Positions 7,079-61,616 of a stretch of 64,000 bases of DNA are shown here, in pieces. This DNA comes from Malacoraja senta (Eukaryota), in contig CM075988.1 of NCBI GenBank assembly GCA_038087875.1, forward strand, positions 7,752,001 to 7,816,000. Direction: 5' to 3'. The notes under the pieces are model-generated. The model searched no databases. It saw only the letters and a list, made by a program, of their open reading frames with translations, and was not told the origin of the DNA. The position numbers and the translations under genes are program-made. Positions within the stretch are counted from its first letter, which is position 1. Every line of letters starts with the position of its first letter.

Positions 7079-7339
7079 AAAATTGACATCAAGATCTGGA
7101 GTAACTCAGCAGGTCAGGCAGCATCTCTGGAGAACGTGCATAGGTGATGTTTTATGGGTCGGGACGCTTCTTCAGACTGGAGAAGGATCCCGACCCAAGA
7201 CGTAATCCGTGGAGCCTGAAGAAGGGTCCTGATCTGGCATGTCCACTATCCATGTTCACCAGAGATGCTGCCTGACCCCGCGAAGTTATTCCAGTTCTTT
7301 GTCTTTATCTGCAAACCATCATCTGCAGTTCCTTGTACC
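7079..7339. mobile_element. Short palindromic Penelope-terminus-derived element
   Basis: Inverted arms (ctggagtaactcagc...gatgctgcctgacc); TSD aacRgctcactgga (7065-7078, 7340-7353). Confidence 0.7.
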
Positions 7340-7699
7340 AACAGCTCACTGGAGTCACCTCCTTAATGTCCATTGTTGATACCCTTGCCTGGGTTCTTAC
7401 AGCTGCCCCTACACAAAATAATTTCAAAATTGTGGAAACCATAGTCATAGAATCAACAGTGCAGAATCAGGCCCTTTGCCCCTTTTGCACCAGCCATCCA
7501 TTAGCCATTTAAATTAATTCCACTGCAATCTCATTTTAATCTCTCCAGATTCACAACAACATCTGTTAGATTTTACGACTCACCTACAAATAAGGGCAAT
7601 TTACATTGGCCAATTAACCTACTAACAATATGCCTTTGGAGTGTGAGGCGAAACCCTTGCCGTAATGGAGAGAACATACTCTACATTGATATCACCCAA

Positions 7700-7842
7700 T
7701 TGCACTTTTTCCTTCACTTTCTTCTCTCTTTCAATCTTTTCTTTCTCTAGTGTAAAAAAATAAATAAAGGGAGTACATTAATTGTAAGAAGATATAAATG
7801 ACGAGTATTAATGTATGTGGTTGTAATGTAATGTACTTCTAA

Positions 7843-7881
<39 letters not shown>
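7700..7881 (+). mobile_element. Retroposed poly(A)-tailed 3' end (probably an L1 3'UTR)
   Basis: AATAAA followed by about 33 A; 12-bp TSD gatatcacccaa (7688-7699, 7882-7893). Confidence 0.7.
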
Positions 7882-7883
<2 letters not shown>

Positions 7884-7896
7884 TATCACCCAAGGT

Positions 7897-8140
7897 AGAT
7901 AAAAAATGCTGGAGTAACTCAGCAGGTGAGACAGCATCTATGGAGAGAAGGAATGGGCGATGTTTCGGGTAGAGATCCTTCTTCAGACATCCCCCCTCCG
8001 ACATCAGTCTGAAGAAGGGTCTCGACCCGAAACATTGCCCATTCCTTCTCTCCATAGATGCTGTCTCACCCGCTGAGTATCTCCAGCATTTTTTTGTCTA
8101 CCTTCAATTTTCCCAACATCTGCAGTTCTTTCTTAAACAC
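7897..8140. mobile_element. Short palindromic Penelope-terminus-derived element (inverted pair)
   Basis: Two inverted arms of about 95 bp matching the Penelope 3' end; flanked by gatatcacccaaggt (7882-7896, 8143-8157). Confidence 0.8.
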
Positions 8141-9568
8141 TTGATATCACCCAAGGTCAGGATTGAACCAAGTTTGCAAGAGACACATCTACTCTCTGCA
8201 CCACTGTGTCACCCCAATATCCCCACTTTGTCCAAATGATCTACATCATAAGATCTAGCCCACTCATTCTGCTATCCTTTTACTCTTCTGTTAAGAATCG
8301 AACCCCTTAAGAACATCACCTAGTTTGTCATGACAGCGGGAAGACGTGACCTCATGGACAGAGGTCCTCGCTAGAGACTGCATAAGCTGGAATCTCAGGC
8401 AAAAAGCAAACGGCTAGAGAGTTATCTGTGTTGGGAGAGGAAATATCCATCTTTTGTTGATGCAAGTCTCGACTTGAAACATGAACACTTCTTCTCCTTC
8501 CTCAGGTGCTGCTTGACCTGCGGAGTTCTTCCAGCAGTTTGCCTTTTGATATATTTGGCCCACTTCCCTGCTCTTTCCCCATGTTCCAGGAAATAAACAG
8601 GATGGTGTAATTTACTTTTGTGAATACCAGCTAAAAATTGGTGGCGGTTTCTTCTTGGAATTAGATTAACATCAACAAATTTAGGAGAGCTATGTTGAAA
8701 GAGGGAACGATCTAATTTTGTTTTGTACCGCATGGCATACACAGATAACCTCCATAGTCGGGCCATAGTCGGGAAGAATGGTGTCCGATATTGCCGATTG
8801 TCTTCTATAACCGAGTATGGTTATTTGCTCCAACCCCCTAGTGGCCACTCTAACAAAGGTCTTCTTAACAGCTAGAAATGTAATTATTGTTACTGCAAAC
8901 TAAAAATACAAAAGGCTGTTTGTTACTTTGTTTAATGGAGTATCATCGCACAAGTGTTGATCAAAGTTATTGCTTGTCTATTTCAACCTCTGCAGACTAA
9001 CTAGCAGCTTGTGTTTGGTTTAATTTAGTTTAGAGATACAGCATGGAAACAGGCCATTCGGCCCACCGAGTCCGCACTGATCAGCGATCTCCGCACATTG
9101 ACACTATCCTACACACACTAGGGACAATTTACATTTATACCAAGCCAATTAGCCTACAAACCTGTACGTCTTTGGAGTGTGGGAGGAAACCGAATATCTA
9201 AGAGACAGGTCACAGGGAGAACTTACAAACTCCGTACAGACAGCACCCGTGGTCAGGATCGAACCCAGGTCTCTGGCACTCTAAGGCAGCAACTCAACCA
9301 CTGCGCCACCATGCCACCCTTAAGAGTTCAAGTTCAACTTAGGAGTTCAACTTAAAGAGACAGCGGTGTCTGATCAATGTGAGGACGCTATAACCAAAAT
9401 CTGTTATAAAGAGGTCCGTAATATCAAGGGTAGAGTGAATTCTCACTGAACAGTTCCACTTAATTGTATGATTACTTTGGCTTTGTCATAAGTTGCTGAT
9501 GCGATGAGTTAAAGTTGACTATTCTCAATTCTGTTTTTGTTCCTTCCCGTTAACCCACTCCCACGCAG

Positions 9569-9740
9569 ACACCCACTCTTTCCGCTCCTCGCCCTCCTGT
9601 TTGAGAAGTGCGAGCAAGCCACACAGGGGTCAGAGTGCATCACATCGGCCAGCTTCGACGTCGACATTGAAAACTTTGTCCACCAGCAAGAACAGGAGCA
9701 CAAACCCTTCTTTAGCGATGATCCAGAAATAGACAGCTTG
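9569..9740 (+). CDS. PKNOX2: PKNOX2 (PREP2) internal coding exon, MEIS/PKNOX N-terminal (HR1) region
   Basis: Pyrimidine tract and cgcag acceptor (AG 9567-9568); donor gtaagt at 9741; 172 bp, phase 2 to 0. Encodes (R)HPLFPLLALLFEKCEQATQGSECITSASFDVDIENFVHQQEQEHKPFFSDDPEIDSL, nearly identical to vertebrate PKNOX2 as recalled. Confidence 0.96.
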
Positions 9741-11177
9741 GTAAGTTATTCTTTGATAAATATTGAGAGATAAAAATAAAAATGTGTCACCCATGTAAAT
9801 GAGGAGCTAAGTTAAAAGGTAATGGGCACTAAAATGTTCTCTTACATTTCTTTTTATGTGGGTCACAGGTTCGCTAATACTTTTTTAATTACGAAAATTA
9901 ATCATCAGCTAGATGTTCTGTTTTAAATGGATTTAAGTCCTTTGAATGGATGCTTTGCCTTCACCTCCTGCTACTGAAGGTTGAGGGGATGTCAGAAGCT
10001 GACAGGGCATTGAATTCACATTAGGAGTTTCTTGCTTCCAGCTGCTGTAATGTGATCTCTGTACACCAGCCTGGAAATTCCTGCACACAACTCCACAAAA
10101 ACCCTGTCAATGCAGTTGAAAACAGGCTTAACCTTGAGCAAGATTACTTCAAGTTTTGGGTATCACATTGACAAACAAATTCGATTCCAGACTTTTCAGT
10201 GGGATCTTGGTTTGCCAAAGTAATTTTCATTCACATTAGAGTCCCTCATCAACAATGGTGCAATGCCCAACACTCATCATCTCCATTGTGACGTTCAACT
10301 TCACTAATCTTAATTACTATTAAAGACACAAAATGTTGGAGTAACTCAGCAGGTCAGGCTGCATCTCTAGAGAACATGGATAGGCGACATAAAGATAGAC
10401 AGAAAGTGGAACAGCATACGTCAGATTTGGCGACATTTTCAAGTCCCTGTTGTTGTAAGTGCAGTTTCCTAACCTGCCCCTGAAGGCCAGTTGTCGTGGC
10501 GGAGTTGCAGGGTCGGCCTGGCCAAGCGTAGCCGTTGGTATCTTCCACTGCTTCGTGCAGCTGTAGCTCGCTTCCGGTCCACGTGCTCGGCCTCTTGGAA
10601 CAGTGACCGCTCCAGCCGAGTCCCAGGCTACTGCAGGGCCTCCAGCGGCCCCCCCCACCATGGAGGTGCACTGCACTGCCTCCCGCAGCCGGTCCGCTTA
10701 CCGGCCCTCTGTCCCGACTCTAACTTCCTCATCCTTGAGGCAAGCAGGGGCCGGGGTTGGCGGCTTCTCTCTCCGGAAGAGTTCCCAGGTAGCCGCGTCC
10801 TCTGTTGCTCATTCTCTTCCCCTCTCATGATGAAAGGATACATTCCTTCATCAGCAACACTGCCCCATAGTCTGCAAGAGTGCGACTTGTATTGTGGGAT
10901 GCTCTTTTTAGTGCTGCCCAATGGGATTTGAGCTGCTAGATTAAATATCAGCCATTGTGAGAATATGCAGTAAGTAATAAATTTGTTCAGCTTTTCACAT
11001 GGAAAGCTGGAAAACAGTATAGGATGACAAACATGGTTTTTCCCAGCCCTCCTCCCCATGGCCAAAGAACTGCTCTCCCAGCCATATTGCGGATTCCATA
11101 AGGACATAGTGCAGATATTCTTCATTGTGTATCATTCCGACGACTAATGCAGGAAGCAACATCAGCTATTATAACTG

Positions 11178-12830
11178 GCATTTTTCTTCACTTTTTCGCC
11201 ACCTCCAACGGGATCCCACCACTGGCCACATCATCCCATCTCCTCCCCTTTCGGCTTTCTGCAGAGACCGCTCCCTCCGTAACTCCCTGGTCAATTCGTC
11301 CCTTCCCACCCAAACCACCCCCTCCCTTGCAACCGCAGGAAATGCTACACTTGACGCTTTACCTCCCCCCTTGACTCCATCCAAGAACCTAAGCAGTCTT
11401 TCCAGGTGCGGCAGAGGTTCACCTGCACTTCCTCCAACCTCATCTATTGCATCTGCTGCTCTAGTTGTCAGCTGCTCTACATCGGTGAGACCAAGCGTAG
11501 GCTTGGCGATCACTTCACCCAACACCTTCGCTCAGTTCGCAATAACCAACCTGATCCCCGGTGACTCAGCACTTCAACTCCCTCTCCCATTCCGAATCCG
11601 ACCTTTCTATCCTGGGTCTCCTCCATTGCCAGAGTGAGTTCCACTGTAAATTGAGGAGCAGCATCTCATATTTCGCATATTACGGAAGCGGCGGCGCTGT
11701 CGTACAGCAGCGGCTCGCCTGCAGTCCGTCTGTTTTTACTTTTTTTTGTTGTTTTCTTTTGTCCTGTTTTAGTTAAATTTTAGTTTATTGGGTTGTGTAT
11801 GTGTGGGGTGGGGGGGTGAAACATGACTTTTGTCTCTTCCTTCGGGGGAATGCGACTTTTTCTTGTCGCATCCCCCTTCTCTGCCTCCGTCTGCGCTGAT
11901 GCCAAAATGGCGGAGCTGCCGGCCTCCAACTCCAACTGCGAGCGACCGACCGACCTCGAGGCTCCGGAGGCAGAGCCAGGACTTACCAGCGCGAGGCTGG
12001 CCAACTTCGGGGCTGCGGTGGCGTTCCGGCGGTGGTGACCAAAGACGCCGGTGGCTACCTGAATCCGGAGGCTCGGCCGCGGGCCCAGTGGACGACATCA
12101 TCAGGAGCGCGCAGGTCACAGGTTGGTGACCTGTTTTTCTGGGGCTCCCGCAACTACAGCTGCGTCCGCTGGACTGGAGGGCGGCAGCTTCGGCCACCCC
12201 GGGCCGCGGAGTTTGAACCGGCCCGTCGCGGAGCACGGATTCGGGCCGCGGAGTTTGAGCCGGCCCGTCGCGGAGCACGGATTCGGCCGCGGGACTGGCT
12301 TACCGTCGCCCGGCGGGGTCACAGCATCAGAAGCCTGGATCGCCTCAGCGCAGAGGGAGAACAAAGCGGGAAGAGACAGAGACTTTAAGACTTTTGCCTC
12401 CATCACAGTGAGGAGGTGCCTGGTGAACTCACTGTGGTGGATGTTAATTTGTGTTTATTGTGTGTTTTGTCATTTATTATTATATGTATGACTGCAGGCG
12501 ACGAAATTTCGTTCAGACCGAAAGGTCTGAATGACAAATAAAGGAATCTCTCTAATCTCTCTAATTACACCAGCAGTATGAACATTGACCTCCAATTTCA
12601 GGTAGTCCCTGCTTTCTCCCTCTTTCCCCTCCTCTTCCCAGCTCTCCCGCAGCCCACTGTCTCCGCCTCTTCCTTTCTTCTTACCGCCCCCCCACCCCCA
12701 CATCAGTCTGAAGAATGGTCTCGACCCGAAACGTTACCTATTCCTTCGCTCCATAGATGCTGCCTCACCCGCTGAGTTTCTCCAGCATTTTTATCTAGCT
12801 TCGATTTTTCCAGCATCTGCAGTTCCTTCT
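11178..12830 (+). mobile_element. Penelope-like 3' fragment interrupted by a GC-rich insertion
   Basis: Same GIY-YIG-coding sequence as 25710-26559, with frameshifts; split at about 11684-12564 and resumes with cagcagtatgaacattgac. Confidence 0.85.
11684..12564 (+). mobile_element. GC-rich non-coding retroposon with a LINE-type tail
   Basis: Ends in hairpin TTCAGACC-GAAA-GGTCTGAA, tgacaaataaagg and (aatctctct)n; internal 42-bp tandem repeat; second copy at 19597-20391 on the minus strand. Confidence 0.7.
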
Positions 12831-14278: not shown

Positions 14279-17200
14279 ATTCTGCACGTTGTGTCTTCCC
14301 CTTTGCTCTATCTATTGTACTTGAGTTTGACGTGATTGTATTTATGTATAGTGTATGTGTTCTCTTTGAATCGCATGCTAAACAATGCTTGTCTCTGTGC
14401 CTCGGTACACATGATAACAATAAACCTAAACCTAAGCATGCTAGGCTGGAGTTAATTAGGAGAGATAATGGAACTGTTCAACCTGTGTTGTCACCACTCC
14501 AGAATCAAGGCTACCCCAGTTTCAATGATCAAGACATTGTTTGCACATGTTCTGAGTCAAGCATTGGCTCACTTGCCAAAGCATACAAGAGAATGAGCTA
14601 TATATTTAACATATGTAAAACATGTGCCCTTCTTGCAACCTGTCCCTATGTAACAGCAACCTCTGACAATAAACCTCTATGGTAAGATTCAGGAAACACT
14701 ACCCCTTCCATTGTCTTGGCAGCCAACTTTCAATACAGGCAGATGTCATTGATGAAATTTCGTATCATCTAAGCACACCAGTACCGCCCAGTCTTTGGCT
14801 GCCTTGAGGTCTACTGGGCAACAGTGATCCCTTTCCTCCTGTAAAATAGCAAAGAAACTTCTGATTGTATTGGCAGCTGGGCAGCATAGTAAGAAAGAAC
14901 AGCTTTGGAAGGAACTGCAGATGCTGGTTTACACCGAAGATAGACACAAACATCTGGAGTAGCTCAGCGGGTTCGGCAGCTTCTCTAGATAGAAGTAATA
15001 GGTGACATTTAGGGTCAAGACCTGAAACGTCTGAAAACGGTGTCGACCCGAAACGTCATCTATTTTCTCCAGCGATGTTGTCTGACCTGCTGAGTTACTC
15101 CTGATTTTTGTGTCTATCTTAAGCATATGTGTTGACTGTCCCATCTATCCTGTTTTACATTGGAGTCAGATCTAAGTAATCCTGATAATTAATATATCAT
15201 AATGCTCAACATTTGGCAGACCAGAAATGCTCTTACCTTCCTTTGATGGAACACCAACTCTTTGCTGAGTTGCATGTTCCATTATCTTGACCCAGTAGCT
15301 ACTTTTTTTCCATGGGAGTTGCAGACAGTGAATGATTGCAAGCAGAAAAATGACGTACAATATGCCTGAATATGGCATCACTATGTCTCCATATTAGTGC
15401 ATTATTTTCCCATGGAGATTAGCCTTGCTGAATTAAATCCAGCTCCTGTGTAATTTCTTTATTAAATATGGTGGGCGAGTTACAACAATTGTCGCATTCC
15501 TGCAGGGATTAGAGATTACAATGATGTGATTTCAACAATGGAGTGTTTCGGGATAGAGTAACAAGCAGTGACAATAGACAATAGGTGCAGGAGTAGCCCA
15601 ATCGGCCCTTCGAGCCAGCACCGCCATTCAATGTGATCATGGCTGATCATCCACAATCAATACCCCGTTCCTGCTTCTCCCCAAATCCCTTGACTCCGCT
15701 ATCTTTAAGAGCTCTGTCTGGCCCTCTCTTGAAAGCATCCAGAGAACCGGCCTCCACCGCCCTCTGAGGCGGAGAATTCCACAGACTCACAACTCTTTGT
15801 GTGAAAAAGTTTTTCCTCATCTCCGTTCTAAATTGCTTGCCCCCTATTCTTAAAGAAGTGAAGTGGGTAGGATGGACCTGCGGATGCTGGTTTACACCGT
15901 AGTTAGACACAAGAAGCTGGAGTAAGTCAGCGGGACAGGCAGCATCTCTGGAGAGAAGGAATGGGTTAATATAACCTGATGTTAGTGGACAAAACATTTG
16001 CAAATGAGTGGTTGATTGGTATTGAACAGATATTTTGTACATTTCTGTTGATGCGGTCTCGCAGCCATGTTGAACACCAGTAGCTCCGTCATATGGAGAG
16101 ACAATGACAAGCACACATCCCCTCCTGTGCCGTGATTATTTTCTCTCCACAATCCTGCAAGGTAAAGCCAGCAAAGTCCAGTCAAGGATAGTCCGAGGGA
16201 CATCAAAGAGGAAGATTCAGCTGCCTGAACCATCCTACCACAACCAGAGTGCAGTGCTGAACTACTATCTACCTCTTTGATGACCTTCTGACTATCGTTG
16301 GCCGGACTTTGCTGGCTTTACCTTGCACTAAACGTTACCCCCTTATCACGAATCTATACGCTGTCAATGGATTGATTGTAATCATGTATTGCCTTTCTGC
16401 TGACGGACTAGCTGGCGACAAAAAAGCTTTTCGCCGTACCTCGGTACACGTGACAATAAACTAAACTGCAACTGAAAGGAGTGAAAAATGAAAGCTGATG
16501 AGCTCGGCGCACTGAGCACTGTGGACTCAAGGCTTGAACTTGTAGGTCATGGATTTCTGCACACTGACAGTGACACGAATTATTGCTCTCTTCTGGTGGA
16601 TTATTAGCTGTGATTCCAGGGTGTTAACGATGGATTATTACACGGATGATAAATGGAGAGTATGAGTGGCAGCTTTTTTTTATTGGAAACCGTTTTTTAG
16701 GTTGCGACCACAAGTGTACACTTTAAGCTGTCTTTAAATTGGAGATTTCCTAAATAGGTGCTTCTGTAGCCATTGGCTGCTGCTTCTGCACGGCACCCGA
16801 TAAAGTTTGCTTGTTGAATATTAATGAGACCCAAAGCATTGATGTAACATTTAATTATCTGTTAGCTGCTTTCTGAAAGAAAACATGGCAATATGCAAGG
16901 AATGTTGCTTCTGCCGTTATCAGTGCTATGTGTGTGTGTGTGTGTGTGAGAGAGAGGAGTGGGGATGGGTGAGAAAAGAGAGAGAAAATGGGTGATATCT
17001 GACAAGGGTGAATGGGAGCATTCCATCAGTCAACAAATTTAAATTTGCTTTCATCCAAATCGCCAAATCTCAAATACTTTCATGAATCAAAGAACGTCGT
17101 TTCCCTCTGAAGAATCAGCTGAATTCATTGCTGGACCTGAAGCCATCTCATCCATTTATACAGCTGCGAAACTGCTGCATTTGGTCCCAGTAGCCTCTGT

Positions 17201-24730: not shown

Positions 24731-24919
24731 ATGGTAAAAGCCATTCAGGTTCTGCGAATCCATCTACTAGAACTGGAGAAAGTCAACGAGCTTTGCAAAG
24801 ACTTCTGTAACCGCTACATAACCTGTCTTAAGACGAAGATGCACAGTGACAACCTACTTCGCAATGACCTAGGAGGTCCATACTCCCCAACAGCTGTGAC
24901 ACATACCCTCCCAGCACAG
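24731..24919 (+). CDS. PKNOX2: PKNOX2 internal coding exon (HR2 region)
   Basis: tttcttgcag acceptor; CAG|gtagga donor; 189 bp, phase 0 to 0, in frame with the previous exon. Encodes [63 protein letters not shown]. Confidence 0.96.
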
Positions 24920-25709: not shown

Positions 25710-26559
25710 CATCTCTCATTCCCCATCCCCCCACTCGTAACAAGGGCAGAGTCGCCCTTGTCCTCACCTTCCACCCTTCCACCTACCAGCCGTCACGTAC
25801 AACATATAATCCTCCGACATTTTCCGCCCACCTCCAACGTGATCCCACCACTTGCCACATCTTCCCATCTCCTCCCCTGTCTGCTTTCCGTAGAGACCGC
25901 TCCCTCCGTAACTCCCTGGTCAATTCGTCCCTTCCCACCCGAACCACCCCGTCTCTCGGGCACTTTCCTTTGCAACCGCAGGAATGCTACACTTGTTGCT
26001 TTACCTCCCCCCTTGACTCCATTCAAGGACCCAAGCAGTCTTTCCAGGTGCGGCAGAGGTTCACCTGCACCTCCTCCAACCTCATCTATTGCATCCGCTG
26101 CTCTGGATGTCAGCTGCTCTACATCAGTGAGACCAAGCGTAGGCTTGGCGATCGCTTCGCAAAACACCTCCGCTCGGTTCGCAATAACCAACCTGATCTC
26201 CAAGTGGCTCAGCACTTCAACTCCCCCTCCCATTCCAAATCCGACCTTTCTGTCCTGGGCCTCCTCCATGGCCAGAGTGAGGACCACCGTAAATTGGAGG
26301 AGCAGCATCTCATATTTCGCTTGGGCAGTTTGCACCCCCAGCGGTATGAACATTGACTTCTCTAATTTCAGGTAGTCCTTACTTTCTCTCCCCTTCTCAG
26401 GCTCTCCCTCAGCCCACTGTCTCCACCTCTTCCTTTCTTCTTCCCGCCCCCCCACCCTCACATCAGTCTGAAGAAGGGTTTCAACCCGAAACGTTGCCTA
26501 TTTCCTTCGCTCCATAGATGCTGCCTCCCCCGCTGAGTTTCTCCAGCATTTTTGTGTAC
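25710..26559 (+). mobile_element. Penelope-like retroelement 3' fragment (GIY-YIG endonuclease plus 3' end), nested in another Penelope-type copy
   Basis: Translation FTCTSSNLIYCIRCSGCQLLYISETKRRLGDRFAKH...HFN...EEQHLIFRLGSLHP is a PLE-type C-terminal GIY-YIG domain. 12-bp TSD cctctagttccc (25698-25709, 26560-26571). Outer copy 25449-26684 has TSD aatatattctgtgg. Confidence 0.88.
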
Positions 26560-27864
26560 CCTCTAGTTCCCTCACCTCTACTTTCAGCCGGAAGAAGGGT
26601 TCCGACCTGAAACATCACCCATCCTTTTTCTCCAGAGATCCTGCCTGACCCGCTGAGATACTCCAGCGCTTTGTGTCTATCTCCAATATATTCTGTGGCT
26701 TCATTTATGCAAGGACAAAATCAGTAGATGTAGGCATGAGAAAAACAAGTGCATTCCAAGCCATAGAGAAATGTTGACTATTTAGGTTGATATTAAGGGT
26801 TCAGGCCCAGCCTCTGTTCAAACCTTCCTGGGCAACAGCCAGGCACGGAAATCTCAGCTGCAGGAGGCGACTGCCAGAGAATCGCAGGAAGGGTCTCCAG
26901 CAGTCTTTGAGTGGCTGCAGGTAGTGGTCCAGAGATTACTACATCAGCATTTTATTTTTCTCCGTTATGTACTATGTTTACATATTCTGTTGTGCTGCAG
27001 CAAGCAAGAATTTCATTGTCCTTTTTGAGACATATGACAATAAAACACTCTTGATTCTTGATAAGGAGAGGTTTCTCACTGCAACTGAGGCCCAGAGACC
27101 AGAGGAAAGATTTTTTCAAGTTGGCAAGAAAACATTTGCTTAAAATATTTTTACCTCTCTAGACCTCAATCCAGCTCCCTGCTGCTTGGTTTTGGTGGGG
27201 CAATCATATTTATTCCATCGATACGTCCTTGCAGATTAGATCCTGATAACCCCCAACATGACTGCCATGTGCATCTCAAAACCATGCAACCATGAGACAA
27301 GTGGCCTTGGTACTATTTAACATTGAAGTCAGTCACCTCATATCAAAGTTGGGAAGGAATGGTCGACCAGCACTGTGTTATGAGACTCTCTGAGTCATTA
27401 GCCAAGGGTCGGGAGTGGGAGGGTTAAAGTTAAGGCAAGTGAGCCCGCCAGCTACGTTAAGCAAGTTGGCAGAATGATATTAATCATAGATCAAAACAAT
27501 ATCATGCTGCATCAGTCAGTCGCATTTAGAAGTCAGACCCTAAGATTAGACAACAGATGGACGGGCAAGGGAGAATATGGATCTCACAGGCTGACACGGG
27601 TCAGTAAGTTTATGCCTGACCAAGACACTGCTTACTGTATGTCAGACCACATTTAAAGTTGAAAGTCCAGTTACATAAAGTCAAAGTCAAATTTATTCAT
27701 CACATGCACCAACGAAGGCACAATGAAATTAATTTGCCACGCAGCGATACGTGTGGCAGATAGTGGCAGTAATAAGACATAATATACTAAATACTAATAT
27801 ATCTCCTACTAAGTAAGTTTTAATGGATTTTTAGTCAATGCAACCAACAACACAGACTATCTGT

Positions 27865-28087
27865 GGAGGAAGGAACTGCACATGCTGGTTTACACCGAAG
27901 ATAGACACAGAATGCTGGAGTAACTCAGCGGGACAGACAGCATCTCCGGAGAGAAGGAATGGATGGCGCTTTGGGTCGAGAATGCTTCGGGGCAGTCTGG
28001 TAAAGGCTCCCGACCTGAAACGTCACCCATCCTTCTCTCCAGAGATGCTGCCTGTCCCGCTGAGTTACTCCAGCATTTTGTGTCTAT
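27865..28087. mobile_element. Short palindromic Penelope-terminus-derived element (similar copies near 14905-15120, 47340-47505, 54654-54830)
   Basis: gatagacacagaatgctggagtaactcagcgggaca... and its reverse complement ...tgtcccgctgagttactccagcattttgtgtctatc. Confidence 0.75.
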
Positions 28088-29076
28088 CACTCATTTCAAT
28101 GGCTTGTTGTATAACCTTGCTCTCTGTTATACTGTTGCTGTTTGTTCCAATGAAGGAGCAGTTACTCACGATAAAATCATTGTTAGGGGAATGCTTTGGA
28201 AAAAAAATCATAGAGCAATGGTAACGTGTTATGTAAAGGCTGATAAATCTTCCTTCCTTCCTTCCTTCCTGCCTGCATTGTAAAAACAGGATCTAATTAT
28301 TGAGGTTTAAATAAATATTGTTGTGTACGTATGAATATTAACCTGTGCTTTGCAATATTGAGTAGAATCTGGCTGTTTACATTACAAATGTTTGTGCTAC
28401 ATTAATAAGTTATGTGCAGGTTTACTCCCCCACCTCTCTCCTTCCCTGTTGCCATCTTATCGCACTGTGTCCACATGCACTCAATATCCCTGTCAACTGA
28501 CTGAGGAATATTAAAAATATTAGTACCAAGGGATAATTGCAATGAAATAAACCCTGCTAGCAATCATTTGATGAATGGATTAAAGGCCATCCATTCGATC
28601 AGTCCTGGATCCTTGCATCTGTACGGTGGTTGAACACAGTAATACATTTGGGGTCAGCTGACATGGCTCCAACTGTATGAGGGTTCATATGACGGTGGAC
28701 AATTATCCAGTTAGGTCCTCTCTATAAATAGCAGACTGCTAACACTCTCTCCAGTCCACCAGTATTCTTTCAGTATAAAAACTAGGAACTGCAGATGCTG
28801 GTATCTACCAAAGATAGACACAAAGTGCTAGAGTAACTCAGTGGGTCAGGCTCTTTGGAGAAAAAGGATGGGTGACGTTTCGGGTCGGGACCCTTCTTCG
28901 GACTTGTTATGTTAATGATGAAATCGGACATAGTCCTGGAGATACTGGCCTGGTGCTCATCTCTGGGGTTATGGTCGAGGGGTAGGTAAGAGGAGGCGTC
29001 TGAGAGCTGACGACAAGAGTGCTTTATTGTCATATGTCCCAGATATGGGAAGAAGAAATCCCTGCTATACGAGCGG

Positions 29077-29097
29077 ACACACACACGCACGCACGCA

Positions 29098-29187
<90 letters not shown>
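29077..29187. repeat. (CA)n microsatellite with a short (CACG)n interruption
   Basis: Direct reading, about 110 bp. Confidence 0.98.
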
Positions 29188-29191
<4 letters not shown>

Positions 29192-29951: not shown

Positions 29952-29986
<35 letters not shown>

Positions 29987-30985: not shown

Positions 30986-30988
30986 TTA

Positions 30989-39944: not shown

Positions 39945-40994
39945 CCGCACATTAACACTATCCTACACACCCTAGGGACAATTTACACATGCACAAGAGG
40001 AATGTATATAGTTTATGGCAAGATGCTTAACATCTACTCCTGCACCTATTTTATATGTTTCTGTCATATATTACGGTCATATGGAATAGGAGTAGAATTA
40101 GGCTATTCGGCCCATCAAGTCTAATCCGCCATTCAATCATGGCTGATCTATCTCTCCCTCCTTACCCCATTCCCTCTAACACCTGTACTAATCAAGAATC
40201 TATCTATCTCTGCCTTAAAAATATCCAAAGACTTGGCCTCCACAACCTTCTGTGGGAAAGAATTCCACAGATTCACCACCCTCTGACTAAAGAAATTTCT
40301 CTTTATCTCCTTCCTAAAAGAATGTCCTTCAGTTCTATGACCTCTAGTCCTAGACTCCACCACTAGAGGAAACAGCCTCTGGGGATGGTGGTGGAGGCAG
40401 ATACGATAATGGCGTTAAAAAGGCTTTTAGATAGGCATGTGAATATGAAAGGAATGGAGGGATATGGATCACATGCAGGCAGAGGAGATTTAGTTTAATG
40501 TGGCATTATGTTCAACACAGGTATTGTAGTCTGAAAGGCATATTCCTGTACAGTAGTGTTCTATGTCCTTGGCTATGAACTGTTTGATCGGAAGAAGGTT
40601 CCGATCACATTCAAGTCTCAAGCATAGGACATGGGTTCTAACCGGGATAATTCACTGTTTCACTAAATGAAATGCGGGCTTTACTTAGACTGGATGGGAA
40701 GGGGGGGAAGGGTGCTTGATGGGTGAGTGGTGGTGACCCTGTGGGGAAGAGGGTGAACTGCACTCGTGTTATAGTAGAATTGATTCTAGTTTAAGGTATA
40801 AATAGTCTTGACTTGTTTGAGATGAGAAACAATGCTGCATTGCAATAGTCTGAAGTTTAGTTCAGTCTAGTTTATTGTCACGTGTACCGAGGTACAGTGA
40901 AAAGCTTTTGTTGCATGCTAACCAGTCAGCGGAAACACAATACAGAATGGTTTTGTCCCGAAACGTCACCCCTATTCCTTTTCTCCGGAGATTA

Positions 40995-41515
40995 AAAAAA
41001 AAACAAAATAGACTTTATTCAAGTAAAAAAAAAAAAAAATACAGGAGACAATCACAAAAAGTAGGAGTAGTCAACACAGGCAGCATCTCTGGAGAGAAGG
41101 AATGGGTGATGTTTTGGGTCGAGACCCTTCTTCAGACAACTGTGCAAAAGATTCATCCAACATTCTCGGAGCCTATACAAACATTCAGGACTGTTTACCC
41201 AAATCACAATTTACCCCACACCCTTGCCACTCTTGTGGCTCACTGGCGTGAAATCCCTTCCCTTATTTTGAGGGCCATCTCCATCACTCTCTGGCCCCCC
41301 CCCCCATGTCCAGCAGCGGAAGGACCCGAGACTGTGGTCCTCCCCCACAGAGCTTAGGTGTTGGCTGCACCGAGCTTCAGTGCGTCCCTCAGCACGTACT
41401 CCTGTAGGTCAGACGGACATCTCGCTCTGCTGGGAGGTCAACAAAGCTCGGGCAGGCCAAAGAACATTTTTCACCGAGTTGATGACCTTCCAGCAGCACT
41501 TGATATCCGTCTCTG
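40995..41515 (-). mobile_element. Tx1-clade LINE 3' fragment, interrupted by a Penelope-derived arm
   Basis: Minus strand reads DIKCCWKVINSVKNVLWPAR...LQEYVLRDALKLGAANT*ALWGRTTV, resembling recalled Tx1-type ORF2 C-termini. Confidence 0.6.
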
Positions 41516-42226: not shown

Positions 42227-42329
42227 GGAGGTACACAAAAATGCTGGAGAAACTCAGCGGGTGCAGCAGCATCTATGGAGCGAAGGAAATAGGCAACGTT
42301 TCAGGCCGAAACCCTTCTTCAGACCCGGA
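42227..42329 (-). mobile_element. Solo Penelope-terminus-derived short element
   Basis: Single arm of about 100 bp; 14-bp TSD gaatgaataagttt (42213-42226, 42330-42343). Confidence 0.75.
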
Positions 42330-44103: not shown

Positions 44104-44320
44104 AGATAGACACAAGAGGCTAGAGTAACTCAGCGGATCAGACCGCATCTCTGGAGAACAGGAATAGGTGACGTTTCAGGTCGAGAACCATCGTTAGAAG
44201 ATCTGAAGTCTGAAGAAGAGTTTCTTTTCTCCAGAGATGCTGTCTGATCCACTGAGTTACTGCAGCTTTTTGTGTCTATCTATGGTTTAAATCCGCATCT
44301 GCAGTTCCTCCCTACGCATT
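44104..44320. mobile_element. Short palindromic Penelope-terminus-derived element
   Basis: Inverted arms; exact 14-bp TSD tcaaagctgaccca (44090-44103, 44321-44334). Confidence 0.8.
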
Positions 44321-45416
44321 TCAAAGCTGACCCAGGCAGTGCTTGTTTTCTAATGTCGATGCAAGGACCTACAGATGCTGGTTCACCAAAATAGACACAA
44401 AGTTCTGAAGTAACTCAGTGCGTCAGGCAACATCCCTGGAGAACATGGATAGGTGACGTTTCAGGTCGGGACCTGTCTTCAGACTGATTATGGTGGGGGA
44501 CAGGGGGTTAGGTGGGAGAAAGCTGGAAGAGCGGAGGGCATAACAAAGCCTGGCAGGTAACATGTAGAAATAAGGAACTTCAGGTGGTGGTCTTCAGAGC
44601 GTGCCCACCTGAAACCTCACCTATCTATGTTCTCCAGAGACGCTGAGCTACTCCAGCACTTTGTGTCCTTTTCTGTAAACCACCACCTGAGTTGCTCCAG
44701 CACTGTGTCCTGACAAGTAATAGGTTGATATAGGTGAAGGGAGAGGGGGTTAGGTGGGAGAAAGGCGGAGTACCAAGGCAAATCCCTTGTATGTTGATAG
44801 GCAGATGGTTGGACAAAGGACAGAGGAGAAAACACAGAGGATGACAGACAAAAGGATTGAAGAGTTGCAAATTGTGAAGTTAGAGGAAGGAATGTAGGTG
44901 AGGGGAGAAATAGATGTAAATCCAGGTGGGGCACAGGAGAGGGGGTGCGGGGGAAGAAGGGAGGTGGGGGAGGTTTTGTAGTTAGCTAAAACATTTTATA
45001 TTCTTGGAACCAGGGAGATAAAATAACCAACTGTGCCCTTTTTCTAAAGATGGTCTGGACATCAATTGTACTCCCCTCTGCTTCATGCAAACTGACGCTT
45101 TGTGCTCTTCAGTCTGAAGAAGGGTTCTGACCCAAATCGTCACCCATCCTTTTCCTCCAGAGATGCTACCTAACCCGCTGAGTTACTCCAGCACTTTGTG
45201 CCTACTGAACCCACTTAGGTTTATGTGGTAGTATGACGATGTTCTCTGTCTTCATCTAATAGCTGCCCTCCTTGGCTTCAATTTGACAAGATTATTTGAT
45301 GCCACAGTGCATTTGTGTGTCATATATTGCAAAATGGCTTTGATTGTCCTTTCAGCTGAGGTTGTGGCTTTAGCTAGAGTTGCAGCAATGACTAGAAGCT
45401 CTACCTGAGGTAGTGA

Positions 45417-48342: not shown

Positions 48343-49365
48343 CCCCAATTTCTCCATCTATGTCGCATCTGCTCCCAGCATGAGATGCTCCATACTAGGG
48401 CATCGGAGATGTCCTCATTCTTCAGGAACGGTGGTTCCCCTCTTTTATTATAGATAAGGCTCTCACCAGGGCCTCCTCTATATCCTGCAGCTCAGGTCTT
48501 ACTTCCCCTCCCCCTATTCGTAACAAGGACAGAGTCCCCCTTGTCCTCACCTTCCACCCCATCAGCCGTCGCATACAACATATAATCCTCCGACATTTTT
48601 GCCACCTCTAACGGGATCCCACTACTGGCCACATCTTCCCACCTCCTCCCCTTTCTGCTTTCCGCAGAGACCGTTCTCTCCGTAACTCCCTGGTCAATTC
48701 GTCCCTTCCCACCCAAACAACCCCCTCCCCAGGTATTTTCCCTTGCAACCGCACGAGATGCAACACCTGTCCCTTTACCTCCCCCATCGACTCCATCCAA
48801 GGGCTTAATCAGTCTTTCCAGGTGAGGTAGAGGTTCACCTGCACCTCCTCCAACCTCATCTACTGCATCCGCTGCTCCAGGTATCAACTCCTCTATATCA
48901 GCGAGACCAAGCGCAGGCTCGGCGATCGCTTCGCTGAACTCAGTCCGTCTTAACCAAGCTGATCTCCCGGTGGCTCAGCACTTCAACTCGCCCTCACATT
49001 CCCAATCCGACCTTTCTGTCCTGGGCCTCCTCCATTGTCAGAGTGAGGCCCGGCGCAAATTGGAGGAACAGCACCTCATATTTCGCTTGGGTAGTCTACA
49101 CCCCAGTGGTATGAACATTGACTTCCCTAACTTCAAATACCCCTTGCTTTCTCCCTCCTTCCCCTCCCTTCATAGTTGTCTCACAGTCCTACTGTCTCCT
49201 ACATCCTTTCTCCCCCCCCTCCCCTGTAATCAGTCTGAAGAGGGGTCTCGACCCGAAACGTCGCCTATTCCTTCTCTTCATAGATGCTGCCTCAGCAGCT
49301 GAGTTTTATCCAGCATTTTTTGTCTACTTTTGATTTTTCCAGCATCTGCAGTTCCTTCTTAAACA
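48343..49365 (+). mobile_element. Penelope-like 3' fragment (end of RT region, GIY-YIG, 3' end)
   Basis: Degenerate RRICSQ..RASEMSSFFR..GFP-like region followed by GIY-YIG sequence (AQHFNSPSHSQSDLSVLGLLHCQSEARRKLEEQHLIFRLGSLHPSGMN). Confidence 0.85.
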
Positions 49366-52479: not shown

Positions 52480-52512
<33 letters not shown>

Positions 52513-53486: not shown

Positions 53487-54452
53487 TGATCCTCCCTCCC
53501 CACTCCAAGTCAAAAGAGTTTTGAACCCCCAGCTGAGGATCAGACAGGTGAGGCAGAAGCACAGCATCTTGCAGTCTCAGTTACCTCCCAGGCAGGCAAG
53601 CAACCTGTTCTACTTTGGACGGTATCATCTGAAGAAGGGTCTTGACCCGAAACGTCACCCACTCCTTCTCTCCAGCATTTTGTGTCCATCTTCAGTTTAA
53701 ACCAGCATCTGCAGTTCCTTCCTTCACATCACACTTCCAGTCATGTACTTTCCCTGCAGGACTCATCTTACAGGGCTGAGCTCGGCGGCAACATCATTTT
53801 TGCAGTTCCCCGCAGGCCGGCACTGCCTACGCTTCGCTCCTAGATCCCTGCACTGAGTTCGGCAAACTCAGCAATGAGCGGAAAATGTGTGTTGTTGCAG
53901 CTTGCACTGAACAAAATCTGAATAATGCAATGTCAAAAATTAAAAGTTTATTTTAGAAATGCTGAACGCTAGAATTTTGATGATTTTGTGCAGCCGCCCC
54001 TGACAGCCGCTCTTGGAACAGTCACGAGATGGTTTCACGTACACCCACAAAGGCAGGCAGTTCCTCAATATAACCTCTCAGAAGGGAGGCAACACCTTTG
54101 CTAGTGCTGTACTAAGCATTCTATGAAAGTAGACATTACTGGCTTCACCTTGCACTAAACATTATTCCCTTATCATGTACTATATCTACACTGTAAATGG
54201 CTCTATTGTAATCATGCATGTAATCATCGATTGTAATCAACTGAGGTTCGTAGGTTAATTGGCTTCTGGACATTGCCCGTAGTCTGTAGAGAGTGGATGG
54301 GAAAGTGGGATAACGCAGGACTAGTGTGAATGGGTCATTGTGGTCTGGGTGGGCTGAAGGTCTTGTTTTCATGCTGTTTCTCCAAACCCTCTAAATGCAC
54401 CTTAATATTATGTGGTGCACAATGTTGTTCACTATCAGTTTTATTAAAGTGA

Positions 54453-54558
54453 AGACAGGCACAAAATGCTGGAGTAACTCAGCGGGACAGACAGCATCTC
54501 TGCATAGAAGGAATGGGTGACATTTCGGGTCGAGACCCTTCTTCAGATTCAGATTTTC
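54453..54558 (-). mobile_element. Solo Penelope-terminus-derived short element
   Basis: Single arm; 11-bp TSD ttattaaagtg (54442-54452, 54559-54569). Confidence 0.72.
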
Positions 54559-58995: not shown

Positions 58996-59107
58996 GGCTC
59001 TCCATCCTCTCTGACAACAATAACCAACGCTGTCAACTCCCAGGGGATCGTGGTGCCGACCTCTGCACTACAAGGGAATTCTGCCATGTCAACTCAGGTG
59101 GTTACAG
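58996..59107 (+). CDS. PKNOX2: PKNOX2 internal coding exon (linker upstream of the homeodomain)
   Basis: ttgcag acceptor after a T-rich tract; ACAG|gtaagg donor; 112 bp, phase 0 to 1. GSPSSLTTITNAVNSQGIVVPTSALQGNSAMSTQVVT(G) resembles the recalled PKNOX2 segment NSPNSMSGVSNNPQGIVVPASALQQGNIAMTTVNSQVVSG. The exact 5' boundary is uncertain (see findings). Confidence 0.85.
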
Positions 59108-59454
59108 GTAAGGGCTGTCAATGTGTGTTGAGAATGGCTGGTTACCTTCATATTTGTTCTTCCCCTTCCCCCCCCTCCCCCTCCTCCAGCTTGTACCCTT
59201 TGCCTCTATCCTTGCCCCATACACTCTACCTCCATAACACTTGAGGAAATAGCCACCAGAGAATAGAGAAACAAGGAATCATCTGTAGAAGGGTCCTGAC
59301 AGGAAACGCCACCTATACATCTTCTCCAGAGATGCCCCCTGACCTGTTGAGTTACTCCAGCACTGTGTGTCCTTTTCTGTAAACCAGCATCACCAGTTCC
59401 TTGTTTCTACATGTTACCTGCCGGGCTTTGTCCTATCCTTCCATTCTTCCTTCT

Positions 59455-59630
59455 TTCTTCCCCCACCCCACTCCCCACCAACCCCCCACCCACCCCCCAC
59501 CCCACTCCCCACCCACCCCCCACCCACCCCCCACCCACTCCCCACCCCACTCCCCACCCACCCCCACCCACCCCACTCCCCACCCCTCTCCTCACCCCTC
59601 TCCTCACCCCCCAACCCGCTCCCCACCCCC
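59455..59630. repeat. C-rich low-complexity tract (CCCCA/CCCA/CTCC units)
   Basis: Direct reading; many C3-C7 runs. Confidence 0.95.
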
Positions 59631-59738
59631 ACGCTACAATCTTTTTTGTCACCAGAGAATACTTCTTCCTCTTCCCCGAGAGGTAAAGAAGGAGGGTGTT
59701 ACAGTTAGAAATGTGTAGTGTGGCTTGTTGAATAGGTA

Positions 59739-60029
59739 AGGGCCTGTCCCACTTTCCCGAGTTACTTAAGAATTCTCCCGAGTTTTCCCCTTGTTTCAAA
59801 CTCGGAGAATATCCGTAGCGATGCCGTAGATATATCGTAGCGGCTCGTTATGCCAGCCGTAGGTACTCGGGGCATCAGGTAAATCGGGACTTTTTTTTCA
59901 GCATGACAAAAAAGTCCATGAGTAAAAAGATAGTCGGGTGGAGGAGTTCGTAGATCACAAAAATCGTGATTTTTTTATTTTAAGGTCCTTTCAACTCAGC
60001 AGAGGACTCGGGAAAGTGGGTCAGGCCCT
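59739..60029. mobile_element. Harbinger-like MITE (family D)
   Basis: 24-bp TIRs AGGGCCTGTCCCACTTTCCCGAGT / ACTCGGGAAAGTGGGTCAGGCCCT; GTA/TTA flanks. Confidence 0.75.
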
Positions 60030-60670
60030 TTAACATAGCCATCTTGGTAGTCTTAAATAAAAAAAAAATGCTGGAAATACACCCTGTAACTTTTGGACCA
60101 ACCCTCTATTTGTCAACATGATTCAGGCAGCATCTGTGTAGATGTTTCAGGTTCAAGACCAGGTTCAGAAGTGAGGAGGGAGGTAACTGTTCTACTCGGT
60201 ATAAGAATACTTCAACCATTTACAGTCCAGCTACCTCCTTATAAATTGTAATCAATCTTTTTGATCATTGTTGATCACCTTGAAAGCTTGAATTGTCTAA
60301 AATGAAATAAATCTTTACCCGTTAATTTTATATTTTTGTATTCGTTTTTTTGGTGTATAAAATTAAACATTTTCTAGACCAATCATAGAGTCTTACAGCG
60401 TGGAAACAGGCCCTTCGGCCCAACTCGCTCACGTCGACCAACATGTCCCATCTACACTAATCCCATCTGGCTGCGTTTGGCCCATATCCCTCTAAACCTG
60501 TCCTATTCATATACCTGCCTAAATGTTTCTTAAACATTGCAATAGTACCTGCAATCCCTTAAGGTCTGGACAATATTTTATTTCAGTAGCTTGTTGAACT
60601 AGATAGAATGTGTTTAATCTGAGCTTCAGCCTTGTATCTCTGCTCAGAGCCTTATATACAATAAAGGATG

Positions 60671-61616
60671 GTACACAAAAATGCTGGAGAAACTCAGCGG
60701 GTGCAGCAGCATCTATAGAGCGAAGGATATAGGCAAAGTCTCGGGCCGAAACCCTTCTTCAGACTGATAGGGGGTGGGGAGAAGAAAGGAAAAAAGGAAA
60801 AATGCGGAGGAGGAGCCCGAGGGCTGGGGGAGGGGAGGAGACAACCAGAGGGCTGATGAAGGGGAGGGGACAGCAAGGGCTAGCAGAATTGGGAGAATTC
60901 AATGTTCAAGCCCCCAGGATGCAGACTGCCCAAGCGGAATATGAGGTGCATTTCCTCCAATTTACGGTGTTGCTCGCTGTGGCCATGGAGGAGACACAGG
61001 ACAGAGAGGTCAGACACGGAATGGGAGGGGGAGTTGAAGTGCTGAGCCACCGGGAGGCCAGGTTGGTCATTGAGGACCGACCGGAGGTGTTCGGCGAAAC
61101 GATCGCCAAGCCTCCGCTTGGTCTCACCGATGTAGATCAGCTGGCATCTAGAGCAGCGGATGCAATAGATGAGGTTGGAGGAGATGCAGGTGAACCTCTG
61201 TCGCACCTGGAACGACTGCTTGGGTCCTTGAATGGAGTCGAGGGGGGAGGTGAAGGGTCAAGTGTTGCATCTCTTGCGGTTGCAAGGGAAAGTACCAGGG
61301 GAGGGGGTGGTATGGGAGGGAAGGGAAGAATTGACAAGGGAGTTACGGGGGGAGCGGTCTTTGCGGAAGGCAGACATGGGGGGAGATGGGAAGATGTGGC
61401 GAGTAGTGGGGAGAGAGAGCAGTGTTGCGGGGTATGGCAGAGACCCTGGTGCGAGCCTCATCTATGGTGGAGGTGGGGAACCCCCGTTCCCTGAAGAATT
61501 AGGACATTTCAGATGCCCTGGTGTGGAACACCTCATCCTGGGAGCAGATGCGGCGTAGATGGAGGAATTGGGAGTGGGGGATGGAGTCCTTACAGGAAGC
61601 AGGGTGGGAAGAAGTG
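60671..61616 (-). mobile_element. Penelope-like 3' fragment
   Basis: ORF 60880-61206 RFTCISSNLIYCIRCSRCQLIYIGETKRRLGDRFAEH (GIY-YIG); exact 13-bp TSD acaataaaggatg (60658-60670, 61617-61629). Confidence 0.9.

What the first reader, a model, noticed from the sequence alone, without database searches (positions are those of the whole stretch)
7079..60765. Minimal hammerhead-ribozyme-like cores repeated about 20 times in Penelope termini and their short derivatives
Seen: the 3' end of each Penelope fragment and of many 100-250 bp elements carries CTGAAGA-A-GGGTC(tc)GACCC-GAAA-CGTY. CTGAAGA occurs on + at 8009, 12708, 26468, 49235 and 53629, and on - at 7980-7986, 41129-41135, 42316-42322, 54540-54546 and 60756-60762; further degenerate copies exist. 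Established: the hammerhead core is CUGANGA-stemII-GAAA-stemIII-UH. Penelope-like elements are known to carry minimal type-I hammerheads whose palindromic helix III forms only in dimers, and an extra A after A9 is tolerated in a viroid hammerhead. Inference: the self-complementary ACGT in GAAACGTC/T fits that dimeric design, so this could be a high-copy elasmobranch ribozyme family, with + strand copies present in PKNOX2 pre-mRNA. Caveat: stem I is only 2-4 bp in most copies (best GGGU/GCCU in the minus copy at 42291-42326), and many copies have core mutations.
Basis: partly seen in the sequence, partly recalled or inferred. Interest (0 to 1): 0.8.

Follow-up and report, generated by a model that had tools for sequence, protein, structure and literature searches.

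The report
Penelope-element minimal hammerhead motifs, mostly decayed
The repeated motif is real: it is the minimal hammerhead-ribozyme motif that Penelope-like jumping genes are already known to carry, sitting at the head of a roughly 105-base terminal repeat that likely has several hundred thousand, mostly decayed, copies in this genome, and whether it would actually cut RNA is untested.

Summary
Observation confirmed and interpretation supported, but the thing is of a known kind. CTGAAGA-A-GGGTCYCGACCC-GAAACGT-C/T heads a conserved module of about 105 nt. The window holds 42 module copies, and 5 of them pass a strict minimal-hammerhead descriptor. The module ends 3'-fragments of a retroelement that carries, on the motif's strand, reverse transcriptase, then GIY-YIG endonuclease, then a pyrimidine-rich UTR of about 120 nt. 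Units of about 3.8 kb carry the module at both ends. The motif shows the four signatures published for Penelope-like-element (PLE) min-HHRs (PMC4209133): an extra nucleotide after A9, G10.1-C11.1, palindromic ACGU replacing helix III, and location in the terminal repeat. Head-to-head pairs, 5'-truncated stubs and an optional tail are also known PLE traits. The exact 27-mer occurs 20,906 times in the 1.94-Gb genome, and sampling extrapolates to about 7x10^5 modules. Against an active ribozyme: no Rfam hammerhead hit, a helix I of 2 (+2) bp, no stem II covariation, copy 5' ends at C3 rather than at the cleavage site, and no RNA-end data. Cleavage is untested. Interest is low.

The parts
26468..26495 (+). 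Strict-intact min-HHR motif (stem II GGGTTTCAACCC, GAAACGTT) at the head of the terminal module of a long PLE 3' fragment
49235..49262 (+). Strict-intact min-HHR motif (CTGAAGA-G-GGGTCTCGACCC-GAAACGTC)
53629..53656 (+). Strict-intact min-HHR motif in a short stub
44455..44482 (-). Strict-intact min-HHR motif with an A-U first pair in stem II (AGGTCCCGACCT)
   Evidence: genome counts show this double change is no commoner than chance
42295..42322 (-). Strict-intact min-HHR motif of the subfamily with two G.U wobbles (GGGTTTCGGCCT); the flank gives a fortuitous 4-bp helix I
12708..12735 (+). Near-intact motif (10.1 is T, giving a mismatch) at the end of a PLE fragment, lying between the two host exons
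8009..8036 (+). Motif with intact boxes but ACGT decayed to ACAT (CpG decay); right arm of a head-to-head pair
54519..54546 (-). Motif with ACGT decayed to ATGT
25713..26559 (+). Long 5'-truncated PLE fragment (endonuclease-coding remnant, pyrimidine-rich 3' UTR, module). It is 91-93% identical to genomic copies that give GIY-YIG hits
26582..26681 (+). Second, decayed module 23 nt downstream in direct (tandem) orientation
48503..49328 (+). Long 5'-truncated PLE fragment ending in the module
60667..61410 (-). Long 5'-truncated PLE fragment ending in the module (core decayed: GAGACTT)
11192..12792 (+). PLE fragment in two pieces (11192-11676 and 12570-12792) ending in the module
7894..8101 (.). 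Head-to-head (5' ends facing) pair of modules, a palindrome of about 200 nt. Further pairs lie at 7086-7308, 14939-15118, 27900-28088 and 44105-44280
   Evidence: Rfam sub-threshold miRNA-like hairpin hit
9567..9755 (+). Host exon encoding Meis_PKNOX_N positions 11-81 (context, not part of the element)
24731..24850 (+). Host exon encoding Meis_PKNOX_N positions 77-116 (context)

Best explanation
These are copies of the ~105-nt terminal repeat of a Penelope-like retrotransposon, and its first 28 nt carry the minimal type-I hammerhead motif already described for such elements; the motif is predicted to cut after GUC/GUU only weakly, as a dimer or with the element's own protein, and most copies are likely dead. 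Shown: the unit is module, ORF (reverse transcriptase then GIY-YIG endonuclease), a pyrimidine-rich 3' UTR of about 120 nt, then the module again, sometimes followed by a tail. The motif reads C3-U-G-A-A-G-A9, one extra A, a stem II of 4-5 bp closed by G10.1-C11.1, then G12-A-A-A15.1-C-G-U16.1-H17. It has no helix III loop, so helix III can form only when the ACGU of two motifs pair. Inferred from published PLE biology: reverse transcription starts inside the RNA about 60-76 nt (or, with the tail, about 40 nt more) past the cut site. This sets the 3' end of every insertion. Short stubs and head-to-head pairs would arise from heavily 5'-truncated or both-strand-primed insertions. The 5' ends of stubs and of at least one long unit lie at C3, not at the cut site, so ribozyme cleavage does not shape the genomic copies.
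For: The motif is enriched far over chance. A strict descriptor hits 16 times in 464 kb against 0 in the reversed sequence, and all 16 have the 1-nt bulge and the CG palindrome. On the motif's strand, of 26 ORFs scanned from related loci, RVT_1 is hit in 3 (L006, L053, L055) and GIY-YIG in 4 (L007, L008, L053, L056). L053 has both, upstream of its module. Atlas neighbours are RVT_1/DUF8422/HTH_animal and GIY-YIG/HTH_animal clusters of animals. L053 has modules at 1145-1230 and 4931-5033. The L052 unit starts at (C)TGAAGA. A tail (TTCGATTTTCCAGCATCTGCAG...) follows some 3' modules. Among 92 full-span copies, CTGANGA is intact in 64, the bulge is A in 83, the 10.1-11.1 pair is G-C in 58 and G.U in 13, and H17 is C in 71 and T in 15. 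The three largest subfamily consensus strings share identical core boxes and differ in loop II, position 1.1 and a variable stretch of 12 nt. Non-CpG core columns match the consensus at 0.927 against 0.819 downstream (p 2e-4). Literature: the four signatures and opposite-strand pairs (PMC4209133, text read); inverted 5'-truncated copies, tails and HHR near the 3' ends (PMC8557442, passages); internal RT start 111-118 nt into the ORF with the HHR cut site 26 nt in, both strands cleaved and extended, and a protein-assisted HHR (PMC11167929, main text read).
Against: No Rfam hammerhead family matches at gathering score, at E<=10 on the window, or on a 96-nt stretch around an intact copy. Helix I is only U-A/G-C, then a 2x2 mismatch, then two weaker pairs (74, 72, 8, 16, 52 and 38 of 92 paired). 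Stem II variation is transitions to wobbles or mismatches. For the 10.1-11.1 pair the genome counts are GC 1694, GT 802, AC 147 and AT 86, which is no covariation (chi-square p 0.14). Downstream blocks CTCCAGAGATGCTGCC (0.883) and GCTGAGTTACTCCAGCA (0.865) are conserved almost as well as the core. The core figure is also inflated by my requirement that alignments reach C3. Minimum-free-energy folds of monomer and dimer do not adopt the hammerhead. Only 16 of 182 copies are strict-intact. Copy 5' ends: 99 of 160 lie within 11 nt of C3 and only 1 at +28, where a cleavage product would begin. No RNA-end data could be had. Published min-HHRs cleave poorly in vitro, and the Anolis element inserts without cleavage.
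Confidence: 0.8

Rival explanations
1. The motif descends from a PLE hammerhead but no longer works as a self-cleaver in this family. It would be kept as an RNA structure or protein-binding site at the 5' edge of the terminal repeat, for example as part of what the element's protein recognises or where cDNA synthesis ends.
For: Copy 5' ends cluster at C3, not at the cut site. Helix I is minimal, and an RNA starting at C3 would lack its 5' strand. There is no covariation. MFE folds disfavour the hammerhead. In Anolis PAc, cleavage is dispensable for insertion and no RNA-seq reads end at the site (PMC11167929). PMC8557442 notes that HHR-less PLEs proliferate well.
Against: All 11 catalytic-core positions are kept in the consensus of the three largest subfamilies, together with the G10.1-C11.1 pair and the ACGU palindrome. 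A mere binding hairpin would not need these. The PAc HHR does cleave when its protein is present, with C3/G8 rescue genetics (PMC11167929).
Confidence: 0.3
2. It is a chance look-alike: an abundant SINE-like or MITE-like repeat whose sequence happens to contain CTGAAGA, a hairpin and GAAA.
For: No covariance-model support. The whole module is conserved, not only the core. Many copies form inverted pairs that resemble MITE terminal inverted repeats, and antisense frames stay open over some long copies.
Against: The strict descriptor gives 0 hits in the reversed 464 kb. The module is a direct terminal repeat of units of about 3.8 kb that encode RT then GIY-YIG on the same strand. Motif position and all four published signatures match PLE min-HHRs. 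The antisense ORFs have no Pfam hit.
Confidence: 0.03

Closest known systems
Minimal hammerheads (min-HHR) in the pseudo-LTRs of metazoan Penelope-like elements (Cervera & de la Pena 2014, PMC4209133; dimer cleavage in Lunse, Weinberg & Breaker, RNA Biol 2016/17, title seen only in the reference list of PMC6765202)
   Same: CUGANGA and GAAA boxes, an extra unpaired nucleotide after A9, G10.1-C11.1, palindromic 15.2-16.2 with no helix III loop, and location in the terminal repeat. Most copies are solitary and truncated, with opposite-strand pairs close together and massive copy numbers.
   Different: Stem II is shorter here (4-5 bp against 6-8 bp reported for Schistosoma and D. virilis). Helix I is as short as in D. 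virilis (2 bp). The estimated copy number (about 7x10^5 modules, about 5x10^4 strict-intact) is far above the 4,000-9,000 quoted for coelacanth and Xenopus, although their counts used a different descriptor.
Poseidon PLE of Anolis carolinensis (PAc; PMC11167929)
   Same: The HHR lies shortly upstream of the internal reverse-transcription start that defines the 3' end of insertions. There are two alternative ends (a 'tail'). Both-strand priming fits the head-to-head pairs.
   Different: In PAc the ORF starts inside the HHR. Here the long frames of the decayed copies I looked at open only downstream of the module, and the true start codon was not established. The terminal repeat here is only about 105-145 nt.
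Non-LTR retrozymes of animals (PMC7229834, listing and abstract only; bioRxiv 10.64898/2026.07.22.740005, abstract and passages)
   Same: Non-autonomous, HHR-bearing derivatives of PLE terminal repeats. The preprint reports them in its one Chondrichthyes species.
   Different: Retrozymes are head-to-tail tandem arrays with canonical type-I HHRs that give circular RNAs. Here direct tandems are the minority (18 against 35 head-to-head among neighbours within 400 nt), and units do not run from cut site to cut site.

Membership tests
PLE min-HHR (Cervera & de la Pena 2014) | Catalytic boxes CUGANGA and GAAA in type-I order | tested here: met
   Present in the consensus of the three largest subfamilies. 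CTGANGA is intact in 64 of 92 and GAAA in 57 of 92 full-span copies.
PLE min-HHR (Cervera & de la Pena 2014) | One unpaired nucleotide between A9 and 10.1 | tested here: met
   A base is present in 88 of 92 copies and is A in 83 of 92. All 16 strict hits need the bulge.
PLE min-HHR (Cervera & de la Pena 2014) | G10.1-C11.1 closing pair of helix II | tested here: met
   G-C in 58 and G.U in 13 of 92 copies. C11.1 lies in a CpG.
PLE min-HHR (Cervera & de la Pena 2014) | Palindromic 15.2-16.2 (helix III possible only between two motifs) | tested here: met
   ACGT in 38 of 92 copies and its CpG-decay products ACAT/ATGT in another 38 of 92.
PLE min-HHR (Cervera & de la Pena 2014) | Helix I of about 4-5 bp (2 bp in D. 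virilis) | tested here: inconclusive
   Pairs 1 and 2 are paired in 74 and 72 of 92 copies, pairs 3 and 4 in 8 and 16, pairs 5 and 6 in 52 and 38.
PLE min-HHR (Cervera & de la Pena 2014) | Consensus families with compensatory changes in the helices | tested here: not met
   Only transitions to wobble pairs separate the subfamilies. The 10.1-11.1 2x2 table in the genome shows no association. The family is too uniform for this to count strongly.
PLE min-HHR (Cervera & de la Pena 2014) | Sits in the terminal repeat of an element encoding RT plus a C-terminal GIY-YIG endonuclease | tested here: met
   The Pfam scores are below the curated cut-offs but recur in 3 copies (RT) and 4 copies (EN). Atlas results agree. 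The window's own three ORFs gave no Pfam hit.
PLE min-HHR (Cervera & de la Pena 2014) | Self-cleavage 3' of H17 (as a dimer or protein-assisted) | not testable with these tools
   Only assembled contigs of public runs were on offer, so RNA ends could not be read.
Rfam hammerhead families (type I/II/III, HH9, HH10) | Covariance-model score at or above the gathering threshold | tested here: not met
   No hammerhead hit at gathering score, at E<=10 on 64 kb, or on 96 nt. This is expected for a motif without helix III.

The most novel reading that the evidence does not exclude
The 105-nt hammerhead-led repeat is not just debris of truncated elements. It would be a self-standing mini-element (terminal repeat only) that has outgrown its parent to about 7x10^5 copies, about 3% of the genome, mostly as head-to-head hairpins. 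Its 5' end falls at the first core nucleotide rather than at the ribozyme's cut site. This would mean that in this lineage the hammerhead fold marks the RNA or cDNA end, or binds the element's protein, instead of cutting.
Probability: 0.2. Interest if true: 0.55.

Novelty: new member of a known kind. Interest (0 to 1): 0.25.

Why it matters
This is a very abundant vertebrate family of hammerhead-bearing Penelope stubs, with an estimated 5x10^4 copies that still match the full motif, many inside introns on the sense strand. That makes a convenient natural test bed for two open questions about PLE hammerheads: whether they cut at all in vivo, and what they do for the element. It does not change the picture already in print.

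Tried and rejected
Rfam at three settings gave no hammerhead. The best hit was a sub-threshold miRNA-like hairpin, which is simply a head-to-head module pair.

RNA evidence: no RNA holder was listed. All 24 runs are assembled contigs with the kind only guessed. Laying four of them showed thousands of look-alike contigs in four coded organisms but no read ends.

The MITE/DNA-transposon reading (inverted pairs as terminal inverted repeats, antisense ORFs at 25793-26497 and 60733-61494) was rejected. Those ORFs have no Pfam hit. Full units carry the module as a direct repeat, with RT and EN on the motif's strand.

The A-U variant of the first stem II pair at 44455-44482 looked compensatory, but genome counts fit independent mutation.

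An alternative helix (GAAGAAGGG with CCCAUUCCUUC) dominates MFE folds but exists in only one subfamily.

PDB sequence searches with the RT and EN frames gave nothing.

L009:1193-3994 proved to be an unrelated LINE.

Lunse et al. (PMC5785218) is not held. I did not open the supplements of PMC4209133 (its alignments and species lists), and bioRxiv supplements are closed. These could show that this very family or host group is already listed.

Searches for print coverage were 37 papers, 25 listed; 12 papers; 10 papers; most were seen only as listings.
Full report
**Observation**

The heptamer occurs 30 times against 12.4 expected, and 0 of 100 shuffles reach 30. The composite CTGANGA-N(4-30)-GAAACGT occurs 6 times against 0.02 expected. 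GGGTCNNGACCCGAAA with up to 3 mismatches occurs 32 times against 4.07 expected.

Printing the flanks and aligning 13 copies showed that the motif is the first 28 nt of a conserved module of about 105 nt. The module reads (ATCAGT) CTGAAGA-A-GGGTCYCGACCC-GAAACGT-C/T, then ACCYAT, a variable stretch of about 12 nt, CTCCAGAGATGCTGCC, GCTGAGTTACTCCAGCA, and ends near ..GTGTCTAYC. A profile of this module finds 42 copies in the window and 140 in forty arbitrary 10-kb samples of the same genome, 182 in 464 kb in all.

The exact 27-mer occurs 10,406 + 10,500 times in the 1.94-Gb genome, with 0 for the reversed control. The sample density extrapolates to about 6.8x10^5 modules, about 3% of the genome. 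This is a rough estimate.

**What carries it**

Self-comparison of the window shows four long copies that end in the module: 25713-26559+, 48503-49328+, 60667-61410-, and 11192-11676 with 12570-12792+. There are also many short stubs. The window's own frames give no Pfam hit.

Genomic copies 91-93% identical to the window copy extend further upstream. They give RVT_1 in 3 copies (L006, L053, L055; E 2.8e-4 to 2e-3) and GIY-YIG in 4 copies (L007, L008, L053, L056; E 2e-4 to 1.7e-3). These are hits among 26 ORFs scanned, all on the motif's strand and in the order RT then EN. The scores lie below Pfam's curated cut-offs, so this rests on recurrence. Atlas look-alikes add support: RVT_1/DUF8422/HTH_animal for the RT frame and GIY-YIG/HTH_animal for the EN frame, score 0.96-0.97. 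PDB sequence searches gave nothing.

The ORF ends at ..TTCAGGTAG. A pyrimidine-rich UTR of about 120 nt follows and ends in ..ACATCAG|T, directly before CTGAAGA. Longer units carry the module at both ends: L053 has it at 1145-1230 and 4931-5033, about 3.8 kb apart. In L052 the unit begins at (C)TGAAGA next to unrelated DNA. The module runs on into TTCGATTTTCCAGCATCTGCAG.., a stretch that also follows some 3' modules as an optional tail.

An RT with a C-terminal GIY-YIG endonuclease, short direct terminal repeats, heavy 5' truncation, inverted 5'-truncated partners and a 30-40-bp tail are the published hallmarks of Penelope-like elements (PMC8557442, passages; PMC6765202, passages).

**The motif as a hammerhead**

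Read as RNA, the motif is C3 U4 G5 A6 A7 G8 A9, one extra A, and G10.1-G-G-U(-C) / (G-)A-C-C-C11.1 with a UC or CUCG loop. Then come G12 A13 A14 A15.1, C15.2 G16.2 U16.1, and H17 (C in 71, U in 15 and A in 2 of 92 copies). There is no helix III loop: A-C-G-U is self-complementary and could pair only with a second motif.

These are the four non-descriptor signatures that Cervera & de la Pena list for PLE min-HHRs: the nucleotide between 9 and 10.1, G10.1-C11.1, the palindromic 15.2-16.2, and consensus families. Their paper also describes location in the terminal repeat, mostly solitary truncated copies, and pairs on opposite strands 100-700 bp apart (PMC4209133, text read).

My strict descriptor finds 16 motifs in 464 kb and none in the reversed sequence. 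All 16 belong to this module, 5 in the window and 11 outside.

Subfamilies defined on the downstream part alone have identical core boxes in the three largest clusters (n = 23, 17, 6). They differ in loop II, position 1.1 and the variable 12 nt. Two small, older clusters (n = 5, 3) show GAAACAT and CTGTAGA.

**Evidence that weakens an active ribozyme**

- No Rfam hammerhead model matches at any setting.
- Helix I is U-A and G-C, then two mismatches, then two weaker pairs.
- Stem II varies only by transitions. The one apparent compensatory G-C to A-U change, seen at 44455-44482, is not enriched genome-wide: GC 1694, GT 802, AC 147, AT 86, p 0.14.
- Non-CpG core columns match the consensus better than the rest of the module (0.927 against 0.819, p 2e-4). 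Two downstream blocks are nearly as conserved (0.883, 0.865), and my selection of alignments that reach C3 biases this comparison.
- Thermodynamic folds of monomers and dimers prefer other pairings.
- ACGU has decayed at its CpG in 38 of 92 copies, and only 16 of 182 copies are fully intact.

**Ends and arrangements**

With a model extended 400 nt upstream, 160 copies reach the 3' part of the module. Of these, 99 begin within 11 nt of C3, 37 begin further upstream, and 24 begin inside the module. Only 1 begins at +28, where a cleavage product would start. The 3' ends peak at +86 to +89 and at +95 to +104 from C3. That is about 60-76 nt past the cut site, with some copies running into the tail.

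This geometry matches the Anolis Poseidon element. [quoted passage not shown]

Among neighbouring copies within 400 nt, 35 pairs are head-to-head, 18 are direct tandems and 9 are tail-to-tail. Arms of 30 abutting head-to-head pairs are more alike (0.838) than they are to other copies (0.77), and the partner is in the top 5% in 8 of 30. This fits a single origin for each pair.

I infer, but cannot show, that stubs are copies made from the start site back to an RNA 5' end near C3, or are both-strand-primed events. In either case ribozyme cleavage does not define genomic ends.

**Context**

Two exons encoding Meis_PKNOX_N lie on the + strand at 9567-9755 and 24731-24850. The window therefore sits in a MEIS/PKNOX-family gene, and + strand motifs such as the one at 12708 are in its pre-mRNA. 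I did not test which paralogue it is, nor the host taxon. Copies show no strand bias in the window (22 on +, 20 on -).

Contigs of four coded organisms contain the family at 85% likeness or more. Their majority letters restore GGGTCTCGACCC where the window copy has GGGTTTCAACCC. These runs are not shown to be RNA.

**Comparison and verdict**

This is a member of the known class of PLE minimal hammerheads. It fails only the Rfam models, which require helix III, and the covariation criterion, for which the family is too uniform.

A 2026 preprint reports HHR-bearing PLE derivatives (retrozymes) in its single Chondrichthyes species (10.64898/2026.07.22.740005, passages). I found no description of this particular module, but I did not see the supplements. 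I had reached my reading before seeing it.

Novelty is limited to a new, extremely abundant family. Activity is untested.

Noticed in passing
window 7894-8101; also 7086-7308, 14939-15118, 27900-28088, 44105-44280: Head-to-head module pairs form near-perfect hairpins of about 200 nt. One scores as a sub-threshold miRNA-precursor look-alike (MIR6462, 42 bits against 96 gathering, E 4e-4). If transcribed, such hairpins could feed small-RNA pathways.
   Followed up: partly
window 26405-26467 and the equivalent stretch of L001-L008: A long polypyrimidine tract ending in ..ACATCAG lies directly before the motif and looks like a 3' splice acceptor. The ORF stop (CAG|GTAG) about 120 nt upstream resembles a donor. 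In D. virilis Penelope an intron is reported to end at the 5' side of helix I (PMC4209133). Splicing was not tested here.
   Followed up: no
window 9567-9755 (+) and 24731-24850 (+): Two exons of a MEIS/PKNOX-family homeobox gene (Meis_PKNOX_N, 76 and 67 bits).
   Followed up: partly
window 38792-39982 (-): An open frame of 396 aa with a zf-RVT hit (E 6.6e-6). This is a remnant of a different retroelement, unrelated to the finding.
   Followed up: no
L009:1193-3994 (+): An unrelated LINE next to a PLE copy: Exo_endo_phos, then RVT_1 (E 1.5e-32), then an ALKBH8_N-like stretch (E 3.6e-13).
   Followed up: no
L059:1646-2225, L052:1612-2225: The 5' part of the PLE body holds an internal array of short tandem repeats, seen as many offset self-matches in BLAST. 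Its coding or structural meaning is unknown.
   Followed up: no
window 28926-29192 and 7852-7883: A (GT)n microsatellite and a poly-T run abut module copies. They produced spurious weak Rfam hits (SCARNA2, RUF6-5).
   Followed up: no
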